From: Escherichia coli | GTDB lineage: Bacteria; Pseudomonadota; Gammaproteobacteria; Enterobacterales; Enterobacteriaceae | DNA: 64,000 bases | Reading direction: 5' to 3' (one strand) | Assembly (NCBI RefSeq): GCF_011045215.1 | Contig: NZ_CP049201.1 | In this document: positions 13,065 to 55,356 of the stretch, in pieces | How the letters are laid out: each line of letters opens with the position of its first letter | How positions within the stretch are numbered: the stretch's first letter is position 1 | Notes under the pieces: model-generated | Database searches by the model: none | What the model was told of the DNA's origin: nothing | What the model saw: only the letters and a program-made list of their open reading frames with translations | Program-made: the position numbers and the translations under genes

Positions 13065-13338
13065 GATCTGCTCCTTATGAATGATTAAGCGGTATAAATG
13101 AAAAAGCCGCAGCTCCCGGAGAAGACGCGGCCTGATGGATGATGTTTATTGTCTGAGGTACCCTTCACGGGCGGGCCACGCATTAAGCTGTTATGACAGC
13201 AACCGCCTGCCCGTATGAGAAAGATCCTTCAGCCAGGACATACTCTGTGTAACCCGGCATATCTGTTTTCTCCTGATAAATAAAAAGCCTCTGCCACGCG
13301 TTGTGACAGAGGCTGAAGCATGAAACTGACTTCAGGGA

Positions 13339-13869: not shown

Positions 13870-16392
13870 TTATGCCGGTAACTCCGGGGGTAATGCTTCT
13901 TCCAGCCGGTTAACCATATTGCCGAGATGGGATGCATCATATTCCATGACGGGGCGTTGCCTGATGATACTGACCACCAGTGGTTTGATTAACATATTGG
14001 TCGCGGCCCGTTGTTGTATACCGGCGGCGAAAATGATCTCCAGAGCATTCTGATCGATAACACGGGCCAGATTCGCGTTCAGATTTTCTGTTTCATGTCC
14101 GGTCAGCAGGAAACTGCCGGCAAGCCATGTCACCTGTTCCTGAATCATTGCCAGAATTTTGACGCGATCTTCTTCAACCAGCGCTCCGGCAATTTTTCCT
14201 GATACAGCGGAGGCAATCATTCCCCCCAGAACACCGCCAACCACACGCCCTGTCAGTGCACCAAATGGTCCCAGTGGACTGAACAGTATCCCGCCCGCCA
14301 CTGACCCGACAGCTCCACCTGCCACACCGGAAGATGCCACGGCAAGATTCCTGATGAACTGCGTACCGGAGATCCGTCCCCGCAACATTTTGATCATGTC
14401 AGGGCCGGTTGTGACAGCTACCAGTGCCAGAGATGTCACCAGCGTACCCTTCATCACTTTGTTCAGGGCACTGATATTTCCTGCACCGGTCCCCTTCTGA
14501 AGAGCCAGTCGGACAGTCGGGCTGGCAGTCGAAAAATCAATGTGCTTCAGCATACCCTGAACAACACTGAGCCGGTGGAGTTGCTGGGTTGTGACGTAGA
14601 CAGCCAGTGTGCGGGTGAAGGTTTTTCCTGCCTGGACAGCAGCTGTCTGCAGAGCAGCATCGCGATCGCCGGTGCTGAGCCAGAAGACCGATGCCGTCAG
14701 GGCAAAACTGATCCCTCCGGCCGCCAGACTGACAACCGAACCCTCGGCAATATCATAAGTGACCGATTCGATGGTCCCGAACCGGGTGATATTACGGGCC
14801 TGAGTATAAGTCAGATGTCCCCGACGAATCAGCCGGGACGCTTCTGCGGGATCGATTACACCGGGTACTTTACCTTCGCGGATCTTATTCCTCATGGTTT
14901 CAACAGCGCCGGCATACTGATCACGGGGGACTTCCAGTTGCATGGGGCCATTATTTCCCATGTAACGATACTGTCCGTTTTGTCCGTCGAATGCCGCACC
15001 GACGCTACGGGCTGCAGTTGAACAATATTTCGTCTGGATTTCTGTTCCGCTGACCAGTCTGTCTGCTCCATTTCTGGCATTATTATCACCGAGGATCCGT
15101 GCGTTTTTCAGACGGATTCTGTCGACAATATGGTTTCCCCGTTCAGCGGCAAACCCATGTCCCTGCCCTCCGGAAGCAAACATTTTCTCATTTGTACTCC
15201 AGGTTTCCGGCAGTTTCATGAGAATCAGACCATTCGCCGTTGCATCGGAAATAAAACTGTTGTAGGGGCGTTCATAAATTTCCTGACACAGTGTTTCTGT
15301 TTCGCGACAAAGAGAGGAGCAGTACCATTCCGGATCCGGCTTATGATTTTCCGGGGCATGATGTACTTCTGTCAGCCCGCAGGAGGCACAGACACGAAGC
15401 TCATCCACGTGATGGAATGATACAAAACGGCGACCTTCTGAAAAGGGATACCAGTCACCGCCGTCCAGGCAACGATCGAGAAAATCGTCATTCGCTTCCG
15501 GTGATAAATTCAGGCGGTTCCGGAAGAGTGTTTTCAGTTCATCAGGTGTGAATGACAGGTTCTCTTTCAACTGTTCGTTAAACCCTGCCATGTTTCTTTC
15601 ATACCAGGCATTGTTCAGTAACCAGTTTCCGTCTGCCAGTTCAAATTCCCTCAGCTCTCCCCGGGAAATCCGTTGAGAAATAAGCGTCAGCCAGATGCGC
15701 TCCGTCAGTGAGTCAGGAAGGCTGTAATCGTTTTGCAAACTGGTCAGCCACGATTTACTGTTGAGCACCGGTTGTTCTTCCAGTGTCTGGCTGATGGCAC
15801 AGGTCAGTTTTTTCAGCGCCTGGATTTGGCTGGCCGCCCATAGCAGCGTCACTAATGCAGCCAGCCAGTACAACAACCCGCCCCACCACATCAGTGACGG
15901 TGAAATATCGTACTGTAACGCGATCAATGGTGCGCATGCAGAACAAGCCATAAGGAAAAAGGCAGTATAAAAACAGCAGTAATATCCGTTAATTTCCTTG
16001 CTGATATCTTCTGGTGTGATCCCGTTCTGCTGAATGTTTTTGATCTGCAGGGGAACAGCCAGCAGACCACCGGCGAGAGCGGTGGTCAGAATAAATTTCA
16101 CGGAGTCAAAGGTGTGAGACTCCAGCGCAATATGTTTACCATCAAGTCCCCACATGAAGCTGATGATCATTCCGGCAATCGTCAGAAATACGCCTGCCAG
16201 CCAGCGAATATGGAACAACCGGGTTATGCGTTCGGTGATATAGCCAGCCAGTAAGGCCGGGCCGAACAGACACAGCAATATGAGCCCTGCCAGCGCAGAA
16301 GCCGTGCTGATTAATGCTCTGAACAAAAGGCGAAGAATGGCAAATCCTGCGATCAGCAGGATCAGCGCGCCGACTATCTGTAACATAGTCAC
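13870..16392 (-). CDS. Large inner-membrane protein of unknown function (840 aa), YeeR-position downstream of flu
   Basis: Track ORF; hydrophobic N-terminal ~250 aa; central cysteine cluster CASCGLTEVHH...CSSLC; Gly-rich hydrophobic C-terminal third. Confidence 0.6.
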   Translation of the reverse strand: MTMLQIVGALILLIAGFAILRLLFRALISTASALAGLILLCLFGPALLAGYITERITRLFHIRWLAGVFLTIAGMIISFMWGLDGKHIALESHTFDSVKFILTTALAGGLLAVPLQIKNIQQNGITPEDISKEINGYYCCFYTAFFLMACSACAPLIALQYDISPSLMWWGGLLYWLAALVTLLWAASQIQALKKLTCAISQTLEEQPVLNSKSWLTSLQNDYSLPDSLTERIWLTLISQRISRGELREFELADGNWLLNNAWYERNMAGFNEQLKENLSFTPDELKTLFRNRLNLSPEANDDFLDRCLDGGDWYPFSEGRRFVSFHHVDELRVCASCGLTEVHHAPENHKPDPEWYCSSLCRETETLCQEIYERPYNSFISDATANGLILMKLPETWSTNEKMFASGGQGHGFAAERGNHIVDRIRLKNARILGDNNARNGADRLVSGTEIQTKYCSTAARSVGAAFDGQNGQYRYMGNNGPMQLEVPRDQYAGAVETMRNKIREGKVPGVIDPAEASRLIRRGHLTYTQARNITRFGTIESVTYDIAEGSVVSLAAGGISFALTASVFWLSTGDRDAALQTAAVQAGKTFTRTLAVYVTTQQLHRLSVVQGMLKHIDFSTASPTVRLALQKGTGAGNISALNKVMKGTLVTSLALVAVTTGPDMIKMLRGRISGTQFIRNLAVASSGVAGGAVGSVAGGILFSPLGPFGALTGRVVGGVLGGMIASAVSGKIAGALVEEDRVKILAMIQEQVTWLAGSFLLTGHETENLNANLARVIDQNALEIIFAAGIQQRAATNMLIKPLVVSIIRQRPVMEYDASHLGNMVNRLEEALPPELPA

Positions 16393-16506
16393 TCCGTGAT
16401 GAATATCATGTTATTGTTAATGCCAGCGAATGTGGCGTTGAATATCCGTTGCGCCGGTCCGGGTCCCGATCATGATGACCGGGACCACAGAGAGGCGATG
16501 GTTCTG

Positions 16507-19356
16507 TCAGAAGGTCACATTCAGCGTGGCCTGACCGTTATAGCCTTCGGCGCTGTTGCCGCTGACACTGTGGGCATAACCGGCCTGAACGCCCAGGGTG
16601 ATATTTTCCCGGACACGGGCTTCCAGTCCGGCCTGCAGGTCCAGTGACGTGCCATTCCGGGACGGTGAAAACGTCATGTTACTGCCGGCGGCGGCTGTAC
16701 CCATGCTCATGTCACCCCGGGAGCTGAAAGTGCGGATAACAGAAGGCTGTACCCACCAGTTCACCGGCAGTTCACTCACACGGTGTTTTGCACTGTCGCG
16801 CAGAGTGTCACGGGATGAGGTGCCTTCGCCAAAAGTCATATCGTTGTGGCTGCCCAGACGGAAGCCGGCACGCACATGTTGTGCACTGCCATGCCCGAAC
16901 TTCACATAACCGGCGTTATCCTGGCCGTCATCCAGGGAGAGCCCCTGCCAGGTGTACTGCAGTTGTGGCTCCAGCATCAGGTTGTCAGTGATACTGAAGG
17001 GCAGACCGGTTTCCAGTGAGCCCAGCCAGCCCCAGCCCCGGGCGCGGAAGTCGTTATTGTCCGATGACGCTTTCATGCTGTGGCGGGTTCCCTGGGCCAC
17101 AATGTCAGCCCACAGGCCGGAGGACGTGTGTACCAGATTCAGGTATCCGCCCAGGCTGCCGGCATCATCCCGGACCGTGCCGGCACGGGAGCCGTCATCA
17201 TCCTTAACATCAACGGAAGAATGGCCAGCAGCACCATACACTCCTGTCGTCAGTGACATACCGGCAACCTCTGTTCTCAGCAGGTCACCCTCCAGACGGA
17301 CGAGGCCATAGCTGCCGCTGCTTTCCGGCGTGGCCCCACGGGCAATACCACCGTTGTTATCGTGCCCGAGATGACCGCCCTGAATGCTGAGACGGACGCT
17401 GTTATTTTCACCGCTTACACCGGTCTGATGGCTGCGGGAACCTGCCAGAATCCGGTCATAGTCCATTGCCTGTGTCAGCATGGAGGCATACAGGGGGACT
17501 TCAGCACGATAAGCATTTTCACTGCGCAGGTACCAGTCTTCATCGCTGTCACGGTTCAGGGTGTAGTTAAAGGCGCCGGCCTGAAGCGGGCGACTCAGGG
17601 CAAACGCACCTTCTTCTGTGGTAGCACCATTCTGTGCATCCACAACCCGGATACCCTGTCCGGAGGTTGCCACCCCGAGGTTACTGTTTCCGACATTTGT
17701 AAACGCAAGCCAGGTTTTGCCGGTTGCCTGACCACCATTAATCACCAGCTGGTCAGAGGCATTACTGCCATCAAGGCTGACACGCATATTGATGGTGCCG
17801 CCCTGGCCGGTGAGGTTCGTGGTGGTTAGTTTATGGAACGTTACCGGGGAGTTACTTTTTGCAACAGCACGGCTCAGCGCGGCATCCGGTGTCGTCTGAT
17901 TATCAAAGTGAATCTCTCCTGCGTTAATAATATCGCCGGTACTGACCACATCACCATTCAGTACCATACTGGCGCCTTTACTGAGCTGTGTTCTGCCACT
18001 CAGACTTCCCCCGGCAGCCAGCGTCAGTGTTCCACGATGTCCGACAGTGGTGTTGCTGGCCAGTCCTCCGGCATTAACCGTAAAGCTGCCGCCATTTTCC
18101 AGCAGCAGGCCGCTGGCCTGACCGGATATGCCATCAATACTGAACTTACCGCTGGCATTGGTCCCCTCAACAGTGGCACCACTGTCTGCAATCAGGGCAC
18201 CACCGGATGTCATGGTGACATCTGTTGCCTTACCACCGGCAGACACTGCCAGGGTACCGCCGTCATCCACCAGTGTTTTCCAGGCTGAATGGCCCTCCAG
18301 TACATCCAGGCGACCGCCGGACTCCAGAACAACGCCGTCAGCCTTACCGTTTTCCACTGTGAAATTCCCCAGGCGGTTTGTGCCGGTGACAGTTGCAGCA
18401 GTACTGGTAACCAGTGCACCGCCCGTGTTCTGGGTGACTGCAGTGGCTTCCCCGCCGGCATGTACCCTCAGTTCACCGTTCTGATTTATGGTGGTGTTAC
18501 CGGCAGCGCCACCGGCCTTAACAACCTGCCAGCCCCCCTCGTTAATTACCGTGTTCAGCGCCAGTCCGTCCTTGTGCACATACTGGTAACCGCCATTCAG
18601 TGTGGTATTCAGGGCCCTTCCGTGTACCGACTGGTCACCACCTGCGTAAATGAGAGTGTCACGGGCTATCCCGGAAGATAAGATAATCTGCCGTCCATTT
18701 TTGTTGATGGTGGTGGATTCTGCTGTTCCCTGGACCTTCTGACCCGTGTACGAGTTGTCAGAATCCGGGCCGCCTTCTGCGCCGGTGTTGATGATGGTTC
18801 CTGTTGCCAGCCCGCCACTTTTAACGCTCTGGTAACCGTCGCGGTTGATAATTGTACCGGTGGCAACCCCGCCCTCATGAACCCACTGCTCGCCTCTGTT
18901 ATTCAGCGTGGTGTTCACCGCCAGCCCGTTCAGGCTCTGTCCCCCGCCGTCACGAATAACCGTATCACTGGCTGTTCCCCCCTCCAGCACGACCTGACGA
19001 CCATTTGTGGTGACAGTGGTGTTTCCGGCTATCCCGCCATTCTGTATCCATTGCCCACCGGTGTTTTCTTCACTGTCCGGCCCCAGTTCCAGCCCGGTAC
19101 TGATGGTCATTCCGTTGGCCGTACCGAGGACAATCTGGTTGTCATGATTTGTCAGTGTTCCGCCGCTCATGGTTTCTCCCGCCTGTACAACCGTGTCAGC
19201 AGCCAGTGCCGGGACTGACGTGACAGCAGCAAGAGACAGCGCAACCGCCACACCGGTGCGTTTTCCCCGTGAGCGGGCCAGTTCGGAGGCCACCACCAGG
19301 GTGCCCGTAATGTGATTCCATACCAGCCTGTAGCTGGTGTTCAGATGTCGTTTCAT
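16507..19356 (-). CDS. flu: Antigen 43 (Ag43) self-associating autotransporter, ~949-aa allele
   Basis: Track ORF 16507..19431(-); start at MKRHLNTSYRLVWNHITGTLVVASELARS (extended signal peptide); repetitive passenger domain; C-terminal beta-barrel ending ...GYNGQATLNVTF. Confidence 0.92.
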   Translation of the reverse strand: MKRHLNTSYRLVWNHITGTLVVASELARSRGKRTGVAVALSLAAVTSVPALAADTVVQAGETMSGGTLTNHDNQIVLGTANGMTISTGLELGPDSEENTGGQWIQNGGIAGNTTVTTNGRQVVLEGGTASDTVIRDGGGQSLNGLAVNTTLNNRGEQWVHEGGVATGTIINRDGYQSVKSGGLATGTIINTGAEGGPDSDNSYTGQKVQGTAESTTINKNGRQIILSSGIARDTLIYAGGDQSVHGRALNTTLNGGYQYVHKDGLALNTVINEGGWQVVKAGGAAGNTTINQNGELRVHAGGEATAVTQNTGGALVTSTAATVTGTNRLGNFTVENGKADGVVLESGGRLDVLEGHSAWKTLVDDGGTLAVSAGGKATDVTMTSGGALIADSGATVEGTNASGKFSIDGISGQASGLLLENGGSFTVNAGGLASNTTVGHRGTLTLAAGGSLSGRTQLSKGASMVLNGDVVSTGDIINAGEIHFDNQTTPDAALSRAVAKSNSPVTFHKLTTTNLTGQGGTINMRVSLDGSNASDQLVINGGQATGKTWLAFTNVGNSNLGVATSGQGIRVVDAQNGATTEEGAFALSRPLQAGAFNYTLNRDSDEDWYLRSENAYRAEVPLYASMLTQAMDYDRILAGSRSHQTGVSGENNSVRLSIQGGHLGHDNNGGIARGATPESSGSYGLVRLEGDLLRTEVAGMSLTTGVYGAAGHSSVDVKDDDGSRAGTVRDDAGSLGGYLNLVHTSSGLWADIVAQGTRHSMKASSDNNDFRARGWGWLGSLETGLPFSITDNLMLEPQLQYTWQGLSLDDGQDNAGYVKFGHGSAQHVRAGFRLGSHNDMTFGEGTSSRDTLRDSAKHRVSELPVNWWVQPSVIRTFSSRGDMSMGTAAAGSNMTFSPSRNGTSLDLQAGLEARVRENITLGVQAGYAHSVSGNSAEGYNGQATLNVTF

Positions 19357-19569
19357 CAGCTTTTCCTTACAGAGGGTGAATAAAAAAGCCGGTACCCACA
19401 AATGTGGATACCGGCAGGTACAAAACAGCATGGTCAGATAAAGTGGTTTTTCCCGGACATAAATGCTTCCCCTCTCTCATCCGCCAGAGAAGTATCAGTC
19501 CGTTGTGTGCAATTCCGTTCTGCATGATGAAGAGATTCAGCTGCCTTTTCGCAGGCCATTAACCACTAC

Positions 19570-19727: not shown

Positions 19728-20600
19728 TCAGAAGAAAATCCAGTTCCATACCGCACGGGCAACAGAGACCACCGTGTCACGAACAGCGCGCAGGGCCGTA
19801 CGGACAACAGAGGCAACACAGACGCTCTCCGCTGTGTCAAATATCCGGTCCACCGCACCGGTAAACTGTTCACGGGCCTGAGAGCGGACAGATTCCGTGC
19901 GCAGCTCGTCCTGCAGTCGGGTCATCAGGGGACTGGCGGCATGGTCGGGAAGCGCTGTCATGAGCGCACTGACCAGCGTATCCAGTTCCCAGCCGGTGCG
20001 GGCCGATACGGCCACAACCGGATGTGCGGGCCGGAACAGACGGAATACCGCCTCCGTTTTTTCGCGAATGTTCCGTGCCTGTGCGGGAGAGGGCTGAATG
20101 CCGGCCATATCCCATTCATGGCAGGGCTCCGTTTTGTCGGCCTGCGTCACCACAAACAGCACCTGCTGATGTCCCCGGTGCAGGATGTGTCGCCAGAAAT
20201 ACTCATCCACAGACAGGGCACGGTCATCGGCTTTAATCAGCCACAGTACCAGGTCAAGTTCAGGCAGAATGTCACGGTACAGGGCTTCATACTCTGCATC
20301 CCTGTCCCGGCTCTCGCCCACCCCGGGCAGGTCAGTGATAACCATGCTGTGACCGTGGCCACTCAGACGGAAGCGCTGCACTTCCCGGGTGCCGGCGTGA
20401 ACATCACTGACCGGGGTGACCTCCCCCTGAAACAGTGCATTACAGAGTGAGGATTTACCGGCCCCGCTTTTACCCATAATGCCAATCACGGGTTCGTGAC
20501 TGGTGAGTTTGCGCAGATGTTCCAGGATGTGACGGGAAAGTGAGTAAGGCAGGGAGGAGAGCGGTTTTTCAATTGCCTCAATGGCATCAGACGGATTCAT
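19728..20600 (-). CDS. YeeP/YfjP/YkfA-family GTPase (50S ribosome-binding GTPase fold)
   Basis: Track ORF 19728..20639(-); P-loop GIMGKSGAGKSS, DLPG switch motif; start likely at MNPSDAIEAIEK. Confidence 0.8.
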   Translation of the reverse strand: MNPSDAIEAIEKPLSSLPYSLSRHILEHLRKLTSHEPVIGIMGKSGAGKSSLCNALFQGEVTPVSDVHAGTREVQRFRLSGHGHSMVITDLPGVGESRDRDAEYEALYRDILPELDLVLWLIKADDRALSVDEYFWRHILHRGHQQVLFVVTQADKTEPCHEWDMAGIQPSPAQARNIREKTEAVFRLFRPAHPVVAVSARTGWELDTLVSALMTALPDHAASPLMTRLQDELRTESVRSQAREQFTGAVDRIFDTAESVCVASVVRTALRAVRDTVVSVARAVWNWIFF

Positions 20601-21254
20601 ACATGTATTCCCGGTGAAAAAAGACAAAACCCCGCGCACCGGAAAGGTGGCGGGGGATTCACGGAGATAATATCTGCCTGAAATTATTTAGGATGCAGGT
20701 ATCTTCAGATAATCATACCTCCAGAATTTTGTTCTTAATAGTTGAGTAGTGGTATTTGGTTTCCCTGAGAGAATATAAAGGTGAATCATACTGTATTGAG
20801 TTTGATTCTATTTGTACTGAGACAGGTATCTTCATGATTATAATCAAAAGTCGGGTGGATTGGTCTGGCGCTCATTATTTTTTCGAATAAACTCACTAAT
20901 TATTGTAACCATCCCAGAGGAGATGATTTTATGTATAATTGTGGTGAATCATATTCAGAATACGACATATCATTATCTGACGATGAAAACTATAACGATG
21001 ACTATTATCGTGAACGCCCGTGCCCGGGAGAAGTTTTCGGCTATGATAATACTGAGGATAATGATGAGGCGGCATCTGATTATGCACTAAAAATAAATGA
21101 AAACTCTGATTAATACGAGGTGGCTGATAATAAGACAATCAATGACAAATATTAATGAATAAACATAATCAGGCGCTCAATACTTGATTTAATCTGGGCG
21201 CCTGATTAAAATCTGAGGTAACATATAATAATTTTCATCAAAATAGTATTTATG

Positions 21255-24797: not shown

Positions 24798-25730
24798 TCA
24801 GCTGATGATCTCAGAAAAATCCAACTTTATCTGATGAATATCCTCAAGCTGTACTGATGGAAAATAATATCCCTGAACCCCCCATAAACCAGTTCCTGAA
24901 GCAGCATGCAGATAATCCTTATTTTCAACACCCTCGGCAATAACCAGAGGGCAAAATCTTTTTATATTGTCTATTAATGCAGAAAAATGCGGTTTCATAC
25001 TGTATTTTTGAAAAAAACTTTTGTCAAGTTTCACTGCCTGGAATTTATTTCTTATCAATGTATGTATTGTACTGTTACCACTCCCTAAATCATCCAGCCA
25101 GATATGTTCTGACAAATTAATGAGAAAAGGAATTATTGCATCATCAGCCTTTATGACCGGATATGTTTCAGAAATCTCAAGAACAATAAAATCATATGAC
25201 TTTATTATATCTTGAATGTTTTTATTTCTGTATATATACTGACATGTATCATAATCGACGTTAAGAGAACACAGTATATTATGCTTGCTAAAAAAAGAAG
25301 CTTTACTTATTATTTTTCTTATCTGTAATTCCAGCAAATCAATTTTCATCTCTGCTGTAAACATATTCAGCGTTTTCACGGTAGGAAGTTGTTTTCCGTT
25401 AACAGAATAAAATCGGCTCAGAATCTCCACCGCAATCAGCCTGTTACTGTTACCTGCCGTCACGACAGGCTCTGCTATGAAGATAGTTTTCATAAACTGC
25501 CCCATATGTGAATTGTTGCTTTCTCTTATGACTGTTGCTGTCAACGAATTAAACAAAAAGTCCCTGTTCATCCCTTCATCTGCCATGCCCTCCCCCCGGA
25601 ATAAATCAGTACCAGACAGAGCGCAGCACTTCTTTACAGCACAAAACAGCAATATAATCAATTGCTTTTTATTTATTACGTGACAACCATTACAAAAAAA
25701 CAAAATATTTTTCCTTTCTTTTCCTTTCAT
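24798..25730 (-). CDS. EAL-domain protein (cyclic-di-GMP phosphodiesterase-like), AT-rich
   Basis: Track ORF; EAL-family motifs AVEILSR, DDLGSGNS, KLDKSF, AEGVE, QGYYFP; start may be the internal MADEGMNRDF. Confidence 0.65.
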   Translation of the reverse strand: MKGKERKNILFFCNGCHVINKKQLIILLFCAVKKCCALSGTDLFRGEGMADEGMNRDFLFNSLTATVIRESNNSHMGQFMKTIFIAEPVVTAGNSNRLIAVEILSRFYSVNGKQLPTVKTLNMFTAEMKIDLLELQIRKIISKASFFSKHNILCSLNVDYDTCQYIYRNKNIQDIIKSYDFIVLEISETYPVIKADDAIIPFLINLSEHIWLDDLGSGNSTIHTLIRNKFQAVKLDKSFFQKYSMKPHFSALIDNIKRFCPLVIAEGVENKDYLHAASGTGLWGVQGYYFPSVQLEDIHQIKLDFSEIIS

Positions 25731-41234: not shown

Positions 41235-41299
41235 GGCGAATTAAATAAACCTGATAATAACAGTATGGTGAAAGCCCGGAATAAAGAAATAATCCGGTA

Positions 41300-43126
<1,827 letters not shown>

Positions 43127-45352: not shown

Positions 45353-45571
45353 CTATTTACGATAGTATCTTCGCATTTGTAGATAGAGTTGTAACCAAAT
45401 CCCAGCACCTCCCCATAAGCCAACTACTGCGCCAATTATTCCGTATTTTACATACACCTCAGAAGGTATTGGTTCCCGAGCTATAAACCAGATACTAACC
45501 ACTATTCCAATAGAGCAAGTAGCTATAGATATAAGTAACAACTTAATAAGAAGTAGTAGATGTTTTTTCAT
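45353..45571 (-). CDS. cdiI: Putative CdiI immunity protein, small inner-membrane protein (72 aa)
   Basis: Track ORF; start overlaps the cdiA stop; two predicted transmembrane helices. Confidence 0.65.
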   Translation of the reverse strand: MKKHLLLLIKLLLISIATCSIGIVVSIWFIAREPIPSEVYVKYGIIGAVVGLWGGAGIWLQLYLQMRRYYRK

Positions 45572-48500
45572 TTTTTGTCTCCATCAACTTCTTTTTGCGT
45601 TGCGCTGCTTGCACCTTCTGATACGAATGAACCAACAAATCCACCAAATGTTCCTGGTATAGAACTCATTTGGCCGCCTTGATACATACCGTATCCGATA
45701 GACTTTTCCGAATATTGCAGTGAATATTTACTGGCGTCCATTCCCAGTTGATTTTTGATGTATTGAGCTTCTAACTTATTAGTAATTGAAGCGCCAATGT
45801 TATAGCCAAGGCCTGTACCAGCCATGCTACCCACTACTGATGCGGTACTGTCCTGGCCTTCAATCTGGCTGCTCATGTAAGCGCTACCGGCACCCAACAA
45901 CTGGTTAGCGTAATATCCTTTCCCGGCTGTACCTACACCAGTCAAGCCTGACATCATGAAACTGAGATAATCGAACTTATCACCGATATTTCCCGTACCA
46001 ATTTGTACCGCACCATTAGCCCCATAGCTCAGCCCGGCACTAACAAATTTTTCCGTCAGCGTGGCTGATGACGTTAACAACGAACCCGCTCCGGCAACCG
46101 TACCCCAGTAATTTTCCGGTTCCCCGAAGAAAGCCAGAGCCCTGTCACCCTTCGACGTATTACTGTTCAGATAATTCAGGTCGTAGCTGTTGCCTTCAGC
46201 CACGTAATCCTTCACCTCCTGATTAGTCAGTGAACCATACAGCCAGCTAGGTCGGCCCGCCGCGCTGAGCCCGCCCTCAATATTCCATTTATCTTCCCCG
46301 GACAGAGCCGTCAGAGGATCTGCGGCCACATCAATGTGTAATTTCTGTCGGTTCTCTGCGCTTAATACAGCATATTTATTCTGAATATCGCCGCAGTCTC
46401 CACCCGCTTTACGACAGGCCGTCATTTCTCTGTCAAAAGCATGCGCCTCGTCGTAGCTGAGGTAGTTATTCTCAACTGTTGTCTTACCTGACTGTGCGCC
46501 GGCTACCGCTGAAGCCCCCGAGTCGCCCACCAGACCACCGGCCAGGCCGGCAGCAACCGTTGCCAGCGTGGAGACCGTCTGTTTCTCTGTCTCACTCAGT
46601 TCACTCACCGGTTTATCGTACATCTGTGTGGCTATCATTCCCACCACCTCGCCGGTGGCTGCACCTGCAGCACCGGCAAGAGCATTATTTCCCTGTGCCA
46701 GAGACAGTGCGGCATTCACCACGGCATGGGCGGCCACATTTGCAGCCTTATTCACCTCACCTGTAACCGGGTCTGTGGTCATGGTTTTCACCACTTCAGC
46801 CAGATACGGTGCTGCACCACCTGCCAGGGCTGCACTCAGATTACCGCCGGCCAGCCCCTGTACTGCTGCCGTTGCGGCCTGTATCGCCTGCTGGTATTTG
46901 CCTCCCGTTCCAAAACCGGAGGCCGCCATACCGTTATTGTAAGCCCGCTGTGCCACATCCTGTTCCGTGAACGGTTTTCCTGCTGCCTCAAGCTCTGCAC
47001 GGGCCTGATTCAGTGCTGCCGGGTCCCGTTTCGCTTTCTCACCGGCTATCTGTCCTTCCGTTCTGGCAATATCTGCCACCTGGTTACCAATCTCACCAAT
47101 GAGTTGCGCCTGCTGCAACCGCTGCTGCTCTTTTTCCCTGTCAAAGATGGGGGACAGCGTCTGGTTTGCATGCGCAACGTCACGGTTCAGGTCTGCCACA
47201 TCCTGTTTCTGGCTCTGTGTATCCCGGATAGTGATATTCCCGGCAGACACAGCCGACTGCGTGGTACTGTCCGCATGGCCTTCATGATTTGCACCGACCA
47301 GCAGATTGTTTGCCATGTTCCCCAGGAAATTTCCGGCAACACTGCCACCGGTACTGAGCCCTGCACTCTGATGTTCCGTTTTAAAGTCAGCCCGGTTTTC
47401 AGTGTCACTGAAGCCCAGTGTGCCGGTATCCAGCCTGTTTTTATCTGCCGTTGCCGTGGACGCAATCACCGCACCGTTCAGTTGTGTATGCTGTCCGGTC
47501 GTGACATCAAACCCGCCCCTGCCGGCAAAAATCCCTGTCTGCTCCTGCACACTGTCGTGGTTACTGTGCATTTTATCCCGGCTGAGGCTCACACTCGCCG
47601 AACCGCTCATGGACCCGAAAGTGAAGCTGCCTCCGGCGCTGGCATTCTGCTGTTTACTGTCATAATGGTCACTGTCCTGCTCACTGGTCAGTGTCAGATG
47701 GCGACCGGCATCCACTTTCACGGTTTCTCCACTGGCCTGCGCCCCGGTAAGTGTGGTGTCACGCCCACTGATAATGGTCAGCTGTTTTCCCGCATCCACC
47801 GTGGTTTCTGTATGGGTGGTACCGTTGCCTTTTTCACTGCCCTTACCCTGGTTTGCGCTGGCTGACAGACTGAAACCAGGCCCTCCGGGCCCCACACCGA
47901 TACCGACACCCACGCTGCCACCACTGGATGTGTTCTTTCCTTCCAGCTTTGACGTGTTTTCTGCTGATACCAGATTCACGTCACGGTTTGCCTGCAGCAG
48001 AACGTTGTTCCCGGCCTTTATCTGACCGCCCTGTATCGTCAGGTCACCATCCACGCCCTTCACGCCGGAGCCGGTGGCCTGAATACTGAGGTTATTACCT
48101 GCGGTCAGTGTACTGCCCTTCGCCACCGTCTGCTCTGACTGCTGTTCTGATTTCGAAGACTGGCTGCCGTAAGAGAGGCTGATACCCACGGTATTGTTAT
48201 TCTCTTTCTGGTTGCCCTGTGCTTCTGCCAGTCGTCCGGCCTGCACGGCCTGAGCCCCCGAGAGCGCGGCCTTCACCCCCTGCAGGGCTTCAAGCCGGCT
48301 GTTTCCGGCAGATTTCGCCGCCTGTACGGTCTCCACCGTCGTGTTCAGGGCGCTGCCCGCTGTGCCGGACAGGGCAAGCGTCAGACCGGAGGTTTTCTGC
48401 TCCACCGTATGTGTCTGCACATGCCGGTCAGTGGCGGCGGTAATGCTGACCTCCTTACCACTGAGTGCCATGTCCCTGCCGGCAATCAGGTCAGAGCCGT

Positions 48501-51500
48501 TGACGGTCAACCGGTTACCTGCCTGAAGGGAAACATCACCGTGAACACTCCCCACCGTGCTGCCTTTCTGCGTGGTGTCTGTTGCGGTGTCCGTGACCTT
48601 CAGACTCTGGCTGCCCACGCTGAATCCCACACCTCCGGAGCTCATCAGTCCGGATTTTTTCTCCTGTTTCAGGTGTGTTTCACGGTTGCTTTCTGTCAGC
48701 GTTCCGATACTCAGGTTATTTCCGGCAGCCAGGGAGACACGGTTATCCCCGGCCACACTGCTGCCCGTGACGTTCAGATTATGTCCGGCACCGATACTGA
48801 CCGTATCCCCGTTCAGTTCACTGCCCGTCATGGTCCGGCGGTCAGTGACATCATGCGTGGTAGTGGTGGTTTTCGATAACATCCCGCTGTTGCCGGTCAC
48901 TTTATGGTATTCATCCAGCGAGCGGGTATTCTGTGCACCGGTCAGCGTCACGTCATGACCCGCCATCAGGGCCAGGCCTTTCTGAGCTGACAGCAATGCC
49001 GCCTGTGACGTCATATCCCGTCCGGCGGTCAGCGTGACATCACCGTTACCGGCAAGCGTGCTGCCCGTACTCTGTGTGACGCCCTGCGACAGACGATTAT
49101 TTTTATCCCAGATAATATTGTCCTGCGCGGATGTGGTCACTGTGGAGAATGTCATATCCCTGCCGGCACTGAGTTGCGTCAGACTGTCCTTACCCTGGTT
49201 CACCACCGTTGCTGCCGTCAGGTTTATGTCCCGTCCGGCCTGCAGCACCAGTCTGCCCTGGTCATTCTGCACATATACGCCAGCCACACTGTCGATGCTG
49301 GTACGTTCAAAATGGTTCTGTCCGGCGTCACTCTGTGCCGTACGGGTGGTGGTGGTCAGACTGATATCCCGTCCGGCCATCGCCAGCAGGCTGTCCGTGG
49401 CCTGCAGCAGCCCGCCGGTACTGTTAATATCCGTCCGGGCCGTCAGGCTGACATTTGCTCCCTGAATGGTGCCGGCCTGGTTGTGAATGTTTTCTGCACT
49501 GAGCTGCACGGCCTGCTTCCCGGCCAGTTTACCGCTGTTAAACAGGTCACCATCCAGCTTCATCACCATGTCCCTGCCGGCAATCAGCGCACCGGCACTG
49601 TTCACATCACCGGGTTTTACACGGGCATACACCTGAGGTACCTGAACCGTCTGCGTGCTGCCGTCCGGCAGTGTCACCGTGGTGTTAACCAGCCAGACAA
49701 TATCACCGGTCAGTAACGCCATCTGCTCAGCAGTCAGCGCCACACCTGGTGTCAGGTTGTATTGCTTACCAAATGCAATACCCGCATCCATTAACGCCTT
49801 AAACTGCTCTTCATCATTACTGTATCCGTCCAGGTACCGTTGCCCGGTCAGAGCGACAACCTGCTCACGAATCAGACGCTGTTCGTAAAAACCATCCCCC
49901 AGGCGTTTGAGCATGTTATCCCCGTTCTGAGAAAACGCCTTCTGCATGTAATCACTGCCCAGCCACGTCTTCTGGTTCGTAAAACGCGGGTCCGTTTCAA
50001 CCAGATATGGCACATTCACTGCCGGATTTGTTTTAAACAGGCTGCTGTCCGGCAGACGGGTATCCGGCCCGGCAACATGGATACTGCCCTGAGGTGCGCT
50101 GACTTCAAACTGCTGCCCCGGCAACAGAATGACCGGTTCACCGGCTGACACCACCGGGCGAAGCGGTATCCGGTCAGTAACGGCTACTGTCGCATCCACA
50201 TTTCCGGTCAGTCCTGTCTGTACATCCGTTCCCTGTGGCTTCAGGGGAGAAAGCGTGACCTGGCTGCCCTGAACCTGTCCGTGGCTGGTGAGCTCTCCCG
50301 GCTTCAGCGTGATGGTCTGAATGACGGGGGGCGGCTCGTAAGGGGAAATTCTTTCCCCCTGCCTGTCATTTTTATTTTTTCTTTTTATCCGGTAATAATA
50401 TGTGGATGTCCCTTTATCAGTAACATGGCGCTCTCCGCTGACACTGACGTTTTCCACATCACCGGCCTGCATATCCAGCAGACCACCTGCAACCACCTGG
50501 CTCTTGTCATTAAGCAGTTTGTCTGCCACAACCGTCATGCCGGCACCGGACAGTATTTTCCCCGGGTCGGAGTCTTTTACCCGGGTTTCCTCCACGGTAC
50601 GGGTGTATTCATATTTTGTGAACCGGTCGTTGTTATGTCCGGTATCATCCGGCGTGTTCAGGTTCAGCAGTCCATCAGAGGAGTTGTTATCAATGAACAC
50701 CCCCTCATCTTTTGCATTCCAGCGGACATCTGACCCGCGATGCTGATACTCAGTCACCTTTTCCGTGGAAACCACCACGCGCTCCGTGGTGAAATGGTCA
50801 TTGACGTTATTGATTTGTCCGGCACTCAGTACCAGATATCCGGCGGCTTCAATAGTGGCACTGTGATTATTCAGTACACCGGTTTTACCTGTGGCGGTGC
50901 CATTCGCATCCAGCGTGCCACCGATATGCATATCACCTGCACTGTAAATCAGGCTGTGCGTCCGGTTATTCAGGGTCTGTACCCCCAAGTCCACACGCTC
51001 ACGCCCGGCCAGCGTCGCCGCCACGCCATTTTCTTCCAGATTATTAAATGTGGCAGCACTGACACCAACAGCATCGCCGTAGATTCGCCCGGTACCGGAA
51101 TTCGTCAGGGTGTTCGCCTGAAGATGCGTATATTTCCCGTCAATCAGCCCACGGTTCAGCAGTGTGTCCGTCACGTTAAGCCAGGTCTGCCCGGCACTGA
51201 TTTCACCTTTCCCGGTGTTTTCAAGGCGGATGCTGTTCAGGTCAAGTCGGCTGCCTGCCAGCAGGCTGCCGGTATTAGAGACATCGCCATTAACGGAAAG
51301 CGTAAGGTTTCCGTTCGCAATAGTCTGACCACTGTTACTGAACGCTGTGTTACTTTTCAGCGTTATATCGCCCGGGGAAAGCAGTTTCCCGTCACCACCG
51401 AGCTGACCGGCATCCACAGAGACTGACTGCCCGGCCTTAACCACACCGTCACGGTTCGAAAACGCCAGCTGACGGCCACTGACAGACAATGTCGCGCCGG

Positions 51501-54500
51501 AAGAGAGCACGCCATCATTATTACTGAGCGTCCTGTCTGCCATAACCGTAAGCGCCCTGTCTGCCAGAATACTGCCCTCCTGGTTATCAAGGTCCTGCGT
51601 CGTGATGTGTATTGTCTGCGCTTCCAGCCCCTGGCCGGTATTCTGCGTGTGGCGATTGATAAACTGCAGGGCGTTCAGCGTAATGGCAGAACCACTGCGA
51701 ATCAGACCAGAGACGTTGTCCACAACGCCCCGTACACTGTCGAACAGAATGTCGCCCACAGACTGTATCTGTCCGTGGCTGTTCTGCAGGCCTCCCGTAT
51801 GCAGACGGAGTTCACCTTCACTGACCAGCCGGCCACCCTCACGGTTATCCAGCGAGGTGGTGCTCAGGTCAGCTGTCGTTTTCGCCCCCACGGTCCCGCC
51901 CCGGTTATCCATTGCTCCGGTACTGACAGTCAGTTCCTGCAGGCTGTTCAGCGTACCCCCTCTGTTATCCAGCGTCCGGCCTGCGCTATTAATGCTGATG
52001 CCTTTCCCCTGAATAAGACCGGACTGATTGTTCAGCGCCAGACTGTTCCGGCCGGGCAGACCGGTCGCCACAATCTGACCATTCGCCACCACCTGACCGG
52101 ATGTATTGTTAACCACGCCTGCAGTCAGGGACAGCGCATCTCCCGACAAAAGCACACCGGCAGTGCTGTCCAGTGTGCCGGCATTCAGCGTCATCGGGCC
52201 CTGACTGATAACCCCGCCCCGGTCACCACTGTTACGGTTGCTCAGTGTGTCAGCACGGAGATTCAGTGTGGCACCGCTCTGTATCAGACCACCTGCATCA
52301 TTGCTGATATCCGTCGAGGAAAGGGTCAGTGACTGCTGTGCCACCAGTCTGCCGCCCTGATTATCAGAGCGGGTGACATCCAGCCTGCTGTTACCGTTGC
52401 TGACCACCGTCCCCTGCTGATTTTCCAGCACATTCAGGTGCGCATTCAGGTCCCCGCCGGCGGCAAGCGTCCCTTCCTGATTACTGACATCGCCACCACT
52501 CAGCAACATATCCGTCCCGGCCTTCAGTGCGCCTTTCTGGTTCATCAGCGTACCTGACGATATCTGTAATGACGCCTGACTCCCCAGCACGCCCTGACGG
52601 TTATCGAGCGTTCCGGCGTTCAGGGTCATATCCTTCTGACCCGCCATAAATCCCTGCTGGTTATTCAGCATACCGGCCCGTACTGTCAGGGTACCGGCGC
52701 TGCTGATACCACCCCGTGTTTTCGTGTTCCGGTTACTGAGAACCCCGTCCTGTACATCCAGCGTCATGTCACTGCCGGACTGAATCAGACCATCATCAGA
52801 GACCAGTTCGCTGCCTGACACAGACAGCGTTTTCTGTGAAAGCAGTCTGCCGGACGTATTATCCAGCGCACCATCCAGCGTCACGGACAGCCCGTCAGAC
52901 ACCACCGTACCCTGGTGGTTATTCAGACTCCCTGCCGAAATATCCAGCCTGCCGGCGGACTCCATTCGTCCCTCAGTATTGCTGACAGCCTGCTGTGTTT
53001 TTATCCTGCCCGTTCCGGCAGCAGCTGAAATCAGTCCGTTGTCGTTATTCAGTGCCTGTGTATTAATCAGGATGTCACGGCTGGCAATCAGACTTCCCTG
53101 CTGGTTATCCACGGCGCCGGTTGTCCTCACCTGCAGACTACCTGACTGCGCCGCCTGCACTTTCCCCCTGCGATTATCAAGGCTCAGTGCATCCAGGCGC
53201 ACCGCGCCATTTGCCGCAAGCAGCCCTTCCCGGTTATCCACGCTTCCCGGCAGACTCAGCGAAAAATCCCCTGTTCCCGTCTGAATCAGACTGCCTTTAC
53301 GATTTGACAGGCTCTGTGCCGATATCTGCAGTGTGTCGGCATTTACCGTGCCACCATTATTGCTGAACTGCCCGGCAGTCCGGGCGGAAAGCGTACCGGC
53401 ACTCAGTTGTGCATTCTGTGTGGACAGATTTCCGCTGCCTGCATCCAGCTCAGTATGTTGTCCCTGTATCCGGCTGTTGCTTAAATCCAGCCCCTGCCCC
53501 TTCAGTTGCATGTCCCCACCGGACAGAACCTGTCCGTGTGCCGCCAGTTCGCCGGTGGTACTGACAGTCAGGTTGCCCGCTGCCGCCAGACGTCCGTCAT
53601 CTTTCACCCCGGCGGCCAGCAGACTCCGCTCACCGCCGGTCAGACGCGCTGTCTGAATCCGGGTGTTGCGGCGTGATGCCACAGAGCCTGTATGGGTGAA
53701 TGCACCATCACTCTGTATCTGCGTATCCTGCCCCGCATAAACAGAACCACTGTTATGCAGCTCCCGGGTTGTCGCCAGATGCACATCCGTTTTCGCACTG
53801 ATACTGCCACTGTTTTCAATACGTCCGTCAGCCGTCAGGGTAACCGCCCCTGCCTGCGCACCAATATGACCGGCGTTACGAACCCCCACCCCCGTTTCCG
53901 TACCGACAAGGCGAATTTTTCCGGCATACATTCCACCAAGGCTGGACACATCCAGCGCCACCTGTGGCTGCGAAGAGGCATCAGCGGCTTTTTTCTCAGT
54001 CTGCCCGTGTGCAATATCCACATTGTTACGTCCGGTGGTCACTTTCAGGTCCTGCGCCCAGATACCCGCATTAATCTTCACAGACCGGGCAATGATATCG
54101 GTATAATCCGTGCGCGAGGCATCCATCCCTTTGCCCGTAATCTGAATCTCACCACGTTCAACACTGAATCCGGTCAGACTGCCGTTTTTCATCTGAGGCT
54201 GCCCCGTGGTCAGCGTGGCCCGGTTCGCATTAATAAAACCGCACCCGTCGCAACTGATGCCGGCCGGGTTCGCAATCACCACCTGCGCCTTTTTCCCGGC
54301 AACCTCAACAAAACCGTTCAACTGGCTGGGATTGCGACTGTTCACTTCATTAAGAATGATTCGGGCCTCTCCCTTCGCCAGCCACGGGTTACCGGCAACC
54401 ATGCCGCCCAGTTGGGTCTGCACATTTTTATGCGAGTTATTCAGAATGACACCCTGATGACTGACATCAAACTGACTGTAAGTATTGTGCGATACCCCAC

Positions 54501-54804: not shown

Positions 54805-54819
54805 TCTGATAAACCTGAC

Positions 54820-55347: not shown

Positions 55348-55356
55348 GAAATTTTC

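What the first reader, a model, noticed from the sequence alone, without database searches (positions are those of the whole stretch)
13870..16392. 840-aa membrane protein with a central cysteine cluster downstream of agn43
The YeeR-position gene encodes 840 aa: a polytopic N-terminal domain, a CxxC...CxxxC cluster (CASCGLTEVHH...CSSLC) that could bind metal, a soluble central domain and a Gly-rich hydrophobic C-terminus. The function of this family is, to my knowledge, uncharacterised despite its conserved position beside Ag43.
Basis: inference. Interest (0 to 1): 0.4.

Follow-up and report, generated by a model that had tools for sequence, protein, structure and literature searches.

The report
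Membrane-anchored nuclease-like protein YeeR
The gene after Ag43 is full-length YeeR, an inner-membrane protein whose conserved core looks like a restriction-endonuclease-type nuclease joined to a glycine-rich membrane segment, and its relatives sit in mobile elements and beside phage-defence genes, so it is most likely an untested defence or exclusion protein, not an Ag43 helper or transporter.

Summary
The ORF is real: window 13870..16392, minus strand. The likely start is the ATG at 16386, giving 838 aa rather than 840.

It is full-length YeeR. K-12 carries only the first 61% of the gene. It lies in the published agn43-yeeR-irmA operon.

The cysteine cluster (C335, C338, C358, C362, C369) is invariant in 20 full-length homologues, so a structural zinc ribbon is likely. 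It is not the family's core, because about 500-aa relatives lack it.

The family core is residues ~400-815 (Pfam YeeR_C). It has two parts:
- Amphipathic and glycine-zipper helices.

The family is sparse but spans many phyla, and outside E. coli it is not next to Ag43. It occurs as cargo of mobile elements and often behind WYL regulators. In Enterobacter, Serratia and another Enterobacteriaceae genome it directly follows PDC-M09A/B, an untested PADLOC defence candidate. PDC-M09B is a distant homologue of the YeeR core.

Best reading: a membrane-tethered nuclease-type defence or exclusion effector, expressed phase-variably with Ag43 (confidence about 0.45). No activity has been shown.

The parts
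13870..16386 (-). yeeR coding sequence from the probable ATG start (838 aa plus stop). The maximal ORF starts at the GTG at 16392.
   Evidence: ORF list. GGAG then a 5-nt spacer then ATG. PGAP and the homologues start at the ATG.
16392..16395 (-). Shine-Dalgarno GGAG for the ATG start
   Evidence: Sequence read.
15808..16386 (-). N-terminal polytopic membrane domain (aa 3-195, 5-6 helices). Loops 2 and 4 and the segment after the last helix are rich in K/R, which places the following domains in the cytoplasm.
   Evidence: Hydropathy. AF2 pLDDT >90. K/R distribution over 20 homologues. This domain occurs only in the YeeR-type subfamily.
15403..15768 (-). Two helix-helix-beta-hairpin units (aa 209-330) resembling tandem winged-helix domains
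   Evidence: AF2 secondary structure. Foldseek local hits to ESCRT-II tandem winged-helix, F93 and SelB winged-helix proteins, prob up to 0.99 but E about 0.07-0.3.
15268..15402 (-). Cysteine cluster, probable zinc ribbon or treble clef (aa 331-375: C335, C338, C358, C362, C369)
   Evidence: Invariant in 20 full-length homologues. Hairpin plus helix N-terminus geometry. Only sub-threshold Pfam zinc-finger hits.
14749..15177 (-). PD-(D/E)xK-like (restriction-endonuclease-fold) domain, aa 406-548, the most conserved part of the protein. Its motifs are GHGFAAE (H412, E417), GADR (D444, R445), IQTKY (Q453, K455) and EVPxD (E487, P489, D491).
15028..15063 (-). Codons D444..K455: the predicted catalytic beta-hairpin (D-x8-Q-x-K)
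14341..14748 (-). Moderately hydrophobic and amphipathic helices (aa 549-684), conserved across the whole family
   Evidence: Hydropathy, AF2, conservation 0.61-0.75.
14179..14340 (-). Glycine-zipper hydrophobic segment (aa 685-738)
   Evidence: Sub-threshold C19orf12-like Pfam hit, 18.7 bits against a cut-off of 30. Invariant glycines. AF2 pLDDT <50.
13873..14178 (-). C-terminal helical domain (aa 739-840), conserved to about residue 815
16507..19431 (-). agn43 (Ag43 autotransporter), first gene of the operon
   Evidence: Pfam AIDA, Autotransporter, AC_1 and ESPR domains. Operon shown in PMC4807369.
13339..13794 (-). irmA, last gene of the operon
   Evidence: Pfam IrmA, E 1e-38. PMC4807369.
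13286..13314 (-). Intrinsic-terminator-like hairpin (12-bp stem plus T run) just after irmA. None lies between agn43, yeeR and irmA.

Best explanation
YeeR is an inner-membrane protein built from two parts: a lineage-specific front end and a conserved, horizontally mobile back end.

Front end (residues 1-405):
- Five or six transmembrane helices.
- Two winged-helix-like units and a Cys4(+1) zinc ribbon, placed in the cytoplasm.
- I infer that this part localises the protein and binds or senses nucleic acid.

Back end (residues ~406-815, Pfam YeeR_C):
- A restriction-endonuclease-fold domain. Its invariant E417, D444 and Q453-x-K455 occupy the positions of the PD-(D/E)xK active site.
- Amphipathic helices, a glycine zipper and a helical tail. 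I infer that these give a second membrane attachment or an oligomerisation or pore element.

Proposed role: a membrane-tethered nuclease-type effector that acts on incoming or replicating foreign nucleic acid at the inner face of the membrane. In other words, an anti-phage or anti-mobile-element defence or exclusion protein, possibly with membrane damage as a second output.

In E. coli it is co-transcribed with agn43 and irmA, so it is expressed phase-variably under OxyR/Dam control.

Shown:
- The gene, its conservation and the operon (the operon from the literature).
- The predicted fold.
- The genomic neighbourhoods.

Inferred:
- Topology, zinc binding, nuclease activity, substrate and the defence role.
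For: Conserved core:
- The core is residues ~400-815. Short relatives align only there.
- The 406-548 domain has the highest conservation, 0.77 mean column identity.
- H412, G413, F414, A416, E417, D424, D444, R445, Q453, K455, Y477, E487, P489 and D491 are invariant in 75 sequences. Most remain invariant (H412 at 90% or more) in 101 more diverse sequences.

Fold:
- AF2 models are confident in this domain (pLDDT 90-97 in the full model; domain model pLDDT 86.6, pTM 0.82).
- They give alpha-beta-beta-beta-alpha-beta, with D444 at the start of strand 2 and Q453/K455 on strand 3.
- Foldseek finds winged-helix proteins for residues ~210-330.

Topology:
- The charge distribution puts the central region in the cytoplasm.
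- Short relatives have no N-terminal membrane segment before the domain.

Genomic context:
- The domain profile finds 1072 clusters at 50% identity. A species-level genome scan shows a sparse distribution across many phyla: 258 confirmed loci in 100,044 species genomes.
- Mobile-element or defence neighbourhoods include CP4-like islands, an integrase element with PLD and DUF6361 genes, TIR genes, an integrative mobilisable element and a conjugative Lactococcus plasmid.
- A co-directional WYL regulator lies upstream in at least 10 of 72 loci and on the Lactococcus plasmid.
- In Enterobacter, Serratia and another Enterobacteriaceae genome, a 68%-identical YeeR directly follows WYL, PDC-M09A (E 3e-120) and PDC-M09B (E 5e-214). 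In that last genome the cluster also lies next to dndBCDE.

Relation to PDC-M09B:
- It carries the same motifs and architecture.
- The PADLOC model matches a short YeeR_C relative at E 6e-8 over almost its whole length.
- hhalign gives probability 71.5%, E 3.6e-5, and the alignment is collinear.
- PDC systems are defence candidates predicted by guilt-by-embedding (bioRxiv 10.1101/2024.01.29.577857).

Operon:
- RT-PCR and OxyR regulation are published (PMC4807369). H-NS/Hha repression is in PMC6480617.
- No internal terminator is present.
Against: Weak points in the nuclease assignment:
- No sequence or profile match to any known nuclease family or PDB chain was found.
- The third catalytic position is Q, not D or E. 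From my own knowledge this variant occurs in Mrr/MspJI-type enzymes; I did not test it here.
- I could not inspect model coordinates to confirm that the invariant residues cluster in space.

Weak points in the defence assignment:
- PDC-M09 is untested, so the defence link is guilt by association twice over.
- Several homologues sit in ordinary chromosomal contexts with no visible mobile or defence genes.
- The family is very rare in phage genomes: 1 of 50,697 phage records and 6 IMG/VR loci.
- The E. coli gene has no WYL or PDC-M09 partner.

Other limits:
- The glycine zipper is poorly modelled (pLDDT <50).
- No phenotype for full-length yeeR is reported in the papers I read.
Confidence: 0.45

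Rival explanations
1. Membrane-damaging abortive-infection or toxin-type effector. The alpha/beta domain is a non-catalytic sensor or binding module, and the working part is the glycine-zipper and amphipathic C-terminal region, which depolarises or permeabilises the inner membrane when triggered.
For: - The glycine zipper and flanking helices are conserved family-wide.
- There is a weak C19orf12-like hit.
- There are weak matches to the C-terminal membrane region of LeoB, part of the Eleos dynamin-like defence system.
- PDC-M09A is itself a glycine-rich membrane protein.
- PGAP names a Lactococcus relative 'glycine zipper family protein'.
Against: - The alpha/beta domain is the most conserved part. 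It keeps a full set of invariant charged residues in nuclease-site positions, which suggests catalysis rather than binding alone.
- The two outputs are not mutually exclusive.
Confidence: 0.17
2. A nucleic-acid-processing enzyme at the membrane with a non-defence role, for example island maintenance or addiction, DNA uptake or transfer processing, or a toxin used in competition.
For: - It is cargo of integrative elements that also carry toxin-antitoxin, antirestriction and RadC genes.
- In-frame deletion alleles and truncations in E. coli hint at a cost.
Against: - No adjacent immunity-like gene is conserved with the E. coli gene.
- The protein is polytopic and has no secretion or delivery domain.
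- The WYL and PDC-M09 associations fit defence better.
- The catalytic-core segment is not preferentially lost across 5426 genomes.
Confidence: 0.12
3. An accessory factor for Ag43 or IrmA (biogenesis, secretion or regulation), as its operon position suggests.
For: - It is co-transcribed with agn43 and irmA (PMC4807369).
- An IrmA-family gene also neighbours YeeR in Serratia, in the opposite order.
Against: - IrmA is released without YeeR or Ag43 (PMC4807369).
- From my own knowledge, not checked here: K-12, where Ag43-mediated aggregation was characterised, carries only the truncated yeeR (truncation shown, PMC6480617).
- Homologues at 68% identity and below have no Ag43 neighbour.
- Nothing in the predicted structure suggests a secretion role.
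Confidence: 0.05
4. A metal-binding membrane transporter or sensor, with the cysteine cluster as the functional metal site.
For: - The cluster is a conserved Cys4(+1) motif with TRASH-like spacing.
- One sub-threshold TRASH_ZMYM4 hit was found.
Against: - The cluster is absent from most of the family.
- It sits between winged-helix-like units and a nuclease-like domain, the usual setting for a structural zinc ribbon.
Confidence: 0.03

Closest known systems
Pfam PF27347 (YeeR_C) / E. coli K-12 YeeR (b2001)
   Same: It is the same gene family. Every homologue found carries the precomputed PF27347 hit, and the name YeeR_C appears. K-12 yeeR matches nucleotides 1-1527 at 99% identity.
   Different: The K-12 protein is a truncated remnant: the first 61% of the gene, cut inside the nuclease-like domain. 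It lacks the whole C-terminal membrane module (PMC6480617, PMC4807369). The family name carries no function.
PADLOC phage-defence candidate PDC-M09 (PDC-M09A + PDC-M09B)
   Same: - PDC-M09B has the same order of motifs (HGxxAE, D-x8-Q-[ST]-K, [VI]P[KR]D) and the same trailing glycine-rich membrane helices.
- Model and profile comparisons support distant homology.
- In Enterobacter, Serratia and another Enterobacteriaceae genome, YeeR lies directly after PDC-M09A/B.
   Different: - YeeR matches the PDC-M09B models only weakly (E 9e-6).
- YeeR has an extra 400-aa front end of transmembrane helices, winged-helix units and a zinc ribbon.
- The window copy has no PDC-M09A or PDC-M09B neighbour.
- PDC-M09 itself is untested.
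PD-(D/E)xK nucleases with a D...QxK active-site variant (Mrr / MspJI-type type IV restriction enzymes)
   Same: - It shares the alpha-beta-beta-beta-alpha-beta core.
- An acidic residue sits at strand 2 and QxK on strand 3.
- The resemblance of the GADRLV..IQTKY motif to Mrr's GIDGVI..VQAKRW comes from reading the K-12 Mrr sequence.
   Different: - No profile-level similarity to E. coli Mrr was found (hhalign probability 0.4%).
- YeeR has no DNA-modification-reading domain.
- YeeR is membrane-integrated.
- Extra invariant residues (H412, D424, R445, E487, D491) are specific to this family.
Membrane-coupled defence systems such as Zorya and Kiwa (from my own knowledge)
   Same: The concept is similar: an inner-membrane component coupled to a cytoplasmic nucleic-acid-targeting activity that acts at the cell envelope.
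   Different: - YeeR would combine both functions in one polypeptide.
- This is an analogy only.

Membership tests
Pfam PF27347 YeeR_C | Significant match to the family model | tested here: met
   The local Pfam copy lacks this model. However, the 98%-identical cluster representative P0001 and nearly all of the 120 listed homologues carry the precomputed PF27347 hit. The name is given. PGAP names one allele 'YeeR family protein'.
PD-(D/E)xK nuclease superfamily | Core alpha-beta-beta-beta-alpha-beta fold | tested here: met
   - AF2 secondary-structure order.
PD-(D/E)xK nuclease superfamily | Acidic residue at the start of strand 2 and (D/E)xK on strand 3, plus a helix-1 glutamate | tested here: inconclusive
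   - D444, Q453-x-K455 and E417 are invariant and sit at the expected secondary-structure positions.
- The middle residue is Q, not D or E.
- Spatial clustering could not be checked because no coordinates were available.
PD-(D/E)xK nuclease superfamily | Metal-dependent phosphodiester cleavage | not testable with these tools
   This needs biochemistry.
PADLOC candidate system PDC-M09 | Strong match to the PDC-M09B model and an adjacent PDC-M09A gene | tested here: not met
   - The window YeeR matches PDC-M09B only at E 9e-6 with partial stretches.
- Its neighbours are agn43 and irmA.
- It is a distant relative, not a member.
TRASH / FCS-type zinc finger | C-x2-C-x19-22-C-x3-C pattern and a match to a family profile | tested here: inconclusive
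   - The pattern is met in the window protein (C335-x2-C338-x19-C358-x3-C362) and conserved.
- In some homologues the middle spacer falls below 19.
- Profile hits are all sub-threshold: TRASH_ZMYM4 E 0.13 in 1 of 10 segments, and other zinc-finger families score similarly.
Glycine-zipper membrane proteins (C19orf12-like PF20721) | Match above the Pfam gathering score | tested here: not met
   The score is 18.7 bits against a cut-off of 30. The Gly-rich repeat is real, but this is compositional resemblance only.
Characterised transporters or channels | Sequence or fold similarity of the membrane domain to a known transporter | tested here: not met
   - No Pfam, NCBIfam or PDB sequence hit.
- Foldseek found no hit at E <=0.001.
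Eleos / LeoBC dynamin-like defence proteins | Dynamin-type GTPase domain plus membrane paddle | tested here: not met
   YeeR has no GTPase domain. Only the C-terminal membrane region of short relatives matches LeoB weakly, at E about 4e-6.

The most novel reading that the evidence does not exclude
YeeR_C and PDC-M09B together form a previously unrecognised superfamily of membrane-integrated PD-(D/E)xK nuclease effectors used in anti-phage or anti-plasmid immunity. In about a third of E. coli strains one member is wired into the OxyR/Dam phase-variable agn43 operon. If so, the aggregating (Ag43-ON) subpopulation would also be the one carrying this immunity function.
Probability: 0.3. Interest if true: 0.7.

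Novelty: new variant of a known kind. Interest (0 to 1): 0.5.

Why it matters
YeeR is one of the commonest accessory genes of unknown function in E. coli. It is present in about 41% of complete genomes, often in several copies. It is the middle gene of a well-studied virulence-associated operon, agn43-yeeR-irmA.

Work in K-12 could not reveal its function, because K-12 holds only a fragment cut inside the conserved domain.

Assigning a nuclease-like catalytic core with named residues gives a directly testable hypothesis: E417, D444, Q453 and K455. So does the link to an untested defence candidate (PDC-M09) and to WYL-regulated operons.

If confirmed, three things follow:
- A new single-polypeptide, membrane-tethered nuclease effector would be added to bacterial immunity.
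- PDC-M09 would gain a mechanism.
- Phase-variable aggregation would be linked to phase-variable immunity.

Tried and rejected
Searches that found nothing useful:
- Pfam, NCBIfam and PHROGs on the whole protein gave nothing above threshold.
- PDB sequence searches with the protein and with the domain profile gave nothing. L7Ae hits at E about 0.1 were judged chance.
- Pfam at E <=10 on 46 domain sequences showed no recurring nuclease family. SecD_1st appeared in 10 at E >=0.015 and was judged noise.
- hhalign of the domain profile against the E. coli Mrr catalytic domain gave probability 0.4%, so a specific Mrr relationship was dropped.
- The AFDB library was unavailable.
- The zinc segment against Pfam left the zinc-finger class unresolved.
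- A search with only the N-terminal 393 aa returned only E. coli fragments, so there is no evidence that the front end occurs with other effectors.
- Literature searches for YeeR_C, PF27347 and PDC-M09 found nothing relevant.
- One paper listing yeeR (PMC7561378) has no mention of it in the main text.
- The context look-up for P0092 failed.

Ideas tested and dropped:
- That E. coli preferentially deletes the catalytic core. N-terminal, core and C-terminal segments occur in 2216, 2209 and 2189 genomes respectively.
- That YeeP and YeeR form a split dynamin-like pair. The idea rested only on weak LeoBC and LeoB hits, and YeeR relatives generally lack a GTPase neighbour, so I did not pursue it.
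Full report
**Observation.** The window has an 840-aa ORF on the minus strand at 13870..16392, starting at a GTG. That GTG overlaps a GGAG Shine-Dalgarno sequence. An ATG follows five bases after the GGAG, at 16386. Homologues and NCBI's annotation of other E. coli genomes both begin at that ATG, so the protein is most likely 838 aa. I keep the 840-aa numbering below.

Upstream lies Ag43, with AIDA, autotransporter, autochaperone and ESPR domains. Downstream lie IrmA, then DUF932, an antirestriction protein, RadC and the cbeA/cbtA genes. A YeeP-type GTPase sits upstream of Ag43. This is a CP4-44-type island.

- a hydrophobic N-terminal third;
- the cysteines C335, C338, C358, C362 and C369;
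- a soluble middle;
- a glycine-rich hydrophobic stretch at 685-738.

**Identity and what is published.** The gene is full-length yeeR.
- Of 5426 complete E. coli genomes, 2587 carry a match and 1800 carry a near-full-length copy, with up to five copies per genome.
- K-12-type strains match only nucleotides 1-1527.
- Two papers say the same: K-12 yeeR is truncated by a deletion that also removed irmA (PMC6480617; PMC4807369).
- PMC4807369 showed by RT-PCR that agn43-yeeR-irmA is one transcript repressed by OxyR. It also showed that IrmA release needs neither Ag43 nor YeeR, and it calls YeeR uncharacterised.
- PMC6480617 reports H-NS/Hha repression.
- In the window, the only terminator-like hairpin on this strand lies just after irmA (13286-13314). 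None lies between the three genes.
- I found no paper on the family itself.

**Family structure.** A homologue search found about 820-850-aa relatives in Serratia, Methylomonas, Shewanella, Pseudomonas, Herbaspirillum, Cupriavidus and Deefgea. It also found many 470-630-aa proteins that align only to residues ~400-815. All carry Pfam PF27347, named YeeR_C, which my local Pfam copy lacks.

So the protein has two parts:
- a lineage-specific front end, residues 1-405;
- a conserved core, residues ~406-815.

In 20 full-length homologues at 36-67% identity, C335, C338, G339, W356, C358, S359, C362 and C369 are invariant.

Conservation peaks in residues 406-548, at 0.77 mean column identity against 0.39 for the N-terminal membrane domain. 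Across 75 sequences down to 25% identity, these residues are invariant: H412, G413, F414, A416, E417, D424, D444, R445, Q453, K455, Y477, E487, V488, P489 and D491. In a further 101 sequences of varied architecture, most of the set remains invariant and H412 is at least 90% conserved.

**Structure prediction.** The full-length AlphaFold model has mean pLDDT 83. The N-terminal helices and residues 440-530 score above 90. The glycine zipper scores below 50. In order, the model shows:
- helices 2-206;
- two helix-helix-hairpin units (212-260 and 283-325);
- a hairpin carrying C335/C338, followed by a helix that starts at C358/C362;
- a long helix (377-404);
- an alpha-beta-beta-beta-alpha-beta domain (412-535);
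- a further helical region.

K/R counts over 20 homologues put loop 2, loop 4 and the segment after the last N-terminal helix on the cytoplasmic side. Short relatives have no membrane segment before the conserved domain. So the central region is most likely cytoplasmic, which also suits a Cys4 zinc site.

**Fold comparisons.**
- Foldseek with the full model gave no match at E <=0.001. Its best local hits were tandem winged-helix proteins (ESCRT-II, F93, SelB). The membrane part matched no transporter convincingly.
- D444 lies immediately before strand 2, Q453 and K455 lie on strand 3, and E417 lies on helix 1. These are the canonical positions of the PD-(D/E)xK site.
- The Q variant is known, from my own knowledge, in Mrr/MspJI-type enzymes. 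A direct profile comparison with the E. coli Mrr catalytic domain found nothing.
- Profile searches of PDB sequences and of Pfam also found nothing.

I therefore treat the fold assignment as likely and the catalytic activity as an inference.

The zinc segment has TRASH-like spacing (C-x2-C-x19-C-x3-C in the window protein; the middle spacer is shorter in some homologues). It matches zinc-finger profiles only below threshold.

**Distribution and context.** The domain profile finds 1072 clusters at 50% identity. N-terminal additions vary: Sel1/TPR repeats in 6 of 55 proteins, and single cases of TM2, DUF805, TraT, TerB and FGE-sulfatase.

A scan of one genome per species confirmed 258 loci in 100,044 species genomes. 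Of these, 80 were fetched. They span Proteobacteria, Firmicutes, Cyanobacteria, Lentisphaerae, Riflebacteria, Chlamydiae and others. This is a sparse, patchy pattern typical of horizontally moving accessory genes.

Ag43 is a neighbour only in E. coli-type islands. Other contexts are:
- A 68%-identical YeeR in Enterobacteriaceae sits in a CP4-like island without Ag43. It follows a WYL regulator and two genes that match PADLOC's PDC-M09A (E 3e-120) and PDC-M09B (E 5e-214), and it lies next to dndBCDE.
- The same M09A-M09B-YeeR order recurs in two Enterobacter genomes and one Serratia genome.
- Another Serratia copy has an IrmA-family gene upstream and no Ag43.
- A 52%-identical copy is a lone chromosomal gene. 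So are a Pseudomonas copy and a metagenomic copy.
- Other copies lie near HicAB, a TIR gene and IS66 in Methylomonas.
- One lies on an integrase-bearing element beside PLD and DUF6361 genes in Herbaspirillum.
- One lies near a TIR-TPR gene.
- One lies in an integrative mobilisable element.
- One lies on a conjugative Lactococcus plasmid directly after a WYL gene.
- One lies in a temperate Oscillospirales phage between the endolysin and an invertase.

Among 72 loci analysed, a co-directional WYL regulator lies upstream in at least 10 and a divergent XRE/CapH-like regulator in 7. Two conserved small soluble proteins flank the gene in 6-7 Firmicutes loci. One Lachnospiraceae-type locus shows a seven-gene operon: WYL, an AAA ATPase, four small proteins, then YeeR_C.

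The family is rare in phages. Apart from chromosome-sized records filed in the plasmid collection, it is also rare on plasmids.

**Relation to PDC-M09.**
- PDC-M09B shows the same motif order: KHGEIAE, ADYMIDGVDVQSKF and HIPKD. It also has trailing glycine-rich helices.
- PADLOC's PDC-M09B model matches a short YeeR_C relative at E 6e-8 over nearly its full length.
- My hhalign of the YeeR core against 115 PDC-M09B sequences gave probability 71.5% and E 3.6e-5, and the alignment was collinear end to end.
- The two are therefore probably sister families.
- PDC systems are 145 untested candidates predicted because they are embedded in BREX, DISARM or type I RM loci (bioRxiv 10.1101/2024.01.29.577857).

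**Interpretation.** The best-supported reading is a membrane-tethered nuclease-type effector with a variable front end. Its probable role is defence or exclusion against phages or other mobile DNA, and in E. coli it is expressed phase-variably with Ag43.

The steps stand as follows:
- Shown: the gene, its conservation, the operon, the predicted fold and the neighbourhoods.
- Inferred: topology, zinc binding, nuclease activity, substrate and biological role.

The main rival keeps the defence role but makes the glycine zipper the effector and the alpha/beta domain a sensor. An Ag43 or IrmA accessory role is weakly supported, and so is a metal-transport role.

**E. coli alleles.** Besides the K-12 truncation and IS3 insertions, there are in-frame deletion alleles. 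Both remove the catalytic strands and one also removes the zinc ribbon:
- a 691-aa form lacking residues 313-459;
- a 746-aa form lacking residues 395-483.

These are a small minority. N-terminal, core and C-terminal segments occur in 2216, 2209 and 2189 genomes respectively.

**Verdict.** The gene is known by name but not by function. The nuclease-like core, the link to PDC-M09 and the WYL association make it a new variant of a known kind, a defence-type nuclease effector that here is membrane-integrated. It is of moderate interest and readily testable.

Noticed in passing
E. coli proteins P0004 (691 aa) and P0003 (746 aa); window equivalent 15016..15456 and 14944..15210: Some E. coli carry in-frame internal deletion alleles of yeeR, lacking residues 313-459 or 395-483. 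Both remove the predicted catalytic strands and the first also removes the zinc ribbon, while the reading frame is kept. Other alleles are IS3-interrupted or truncated as in K-12.
   Followed up: partly
L012 4761-10523; also L029, L034, L037: In Enterobacter, Serratia and another Enterobacteriaceae genome, a YeeR orthologue (68% identical in L012) is the last gene of a WYL, PDC-M09A, PDC-M09B, YeeR cluster. In L012 this cluster lies next to dndBCDE and a PIN gene. The cluster therefore holds two paralogous nuclease-like membrane proteins side by side.
   Followed up: partly
L109 2577-8899; L044, L060-L102: In Lachnospiraceae/Oscillospiraceae-type loci, YeeR_C ends an operon of WYL, an AAA ATPase and four small proteins of unknown function, with a divergent XRE/CapH-like regulator. 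Two of the small proteins (about 114 aa each) recur directly upstream and downstream of YeeR_C in 6-7 loci and match no Pfam or PADLOC model.
   Followed up: partly
window 19728..20639 (-); short YeeR_C relatives: The YeeP-type GTPase of the island weakly matches the N-terminal GTPase region of LeoBC and LeoA, the Eleos dynamin-like defence proteins (E 1.6e-8). The C-terminal membrane region of short YeeR_C relatives and of PDC-M09A weakly matches the LeoB/LeoBC C-terminus (E about 1e-5). This could be compositional.
   Followed up: no
L016 7163-10520 (Serratia sp.): An IrmA-family gene lies directly upstream of YeeR in a Serratia CP4-like island that has no Ag43. So the IrmA-YeeR linkage exists apart from Ag43 and in the opposite gene order.
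   Followed up: no
window 45568..57096 (-): A 3078-aa ORF lies next to a ShlB/FhaC-type transporter with POTRA domains. This looks like a two-partner secretion (CdiA/CdiB-like) locus in the same window.
   Followed up: no
window 36349..43126 (-): Three adjacent genes sit within an IS-rich mosaic region: an AAA_11/AAA_12 helicase with a C-terminal DUF2726 domain, a VasL/ImpA_N (type VI secretion-related) protein, and a NERD-UvrD helicase. The two helicases look defence-like.
   Followed up: no
window 24798..25730 (-): A 310-aa EAL-domain protein (a cyclic-di-GMP phosphodiesterase type) is encoded between IS elements upstream of the island's GTPase gene.
   Followed up: no
L019 879-9524 (E. coli TUM1886, same island type): In a strain whose yeeR is 99.4% identical, agn43 is split by an IS3 element. 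The island's upstream part carries a type I restriction-modification system with darTG embedded between its genes.
   Followed up: no
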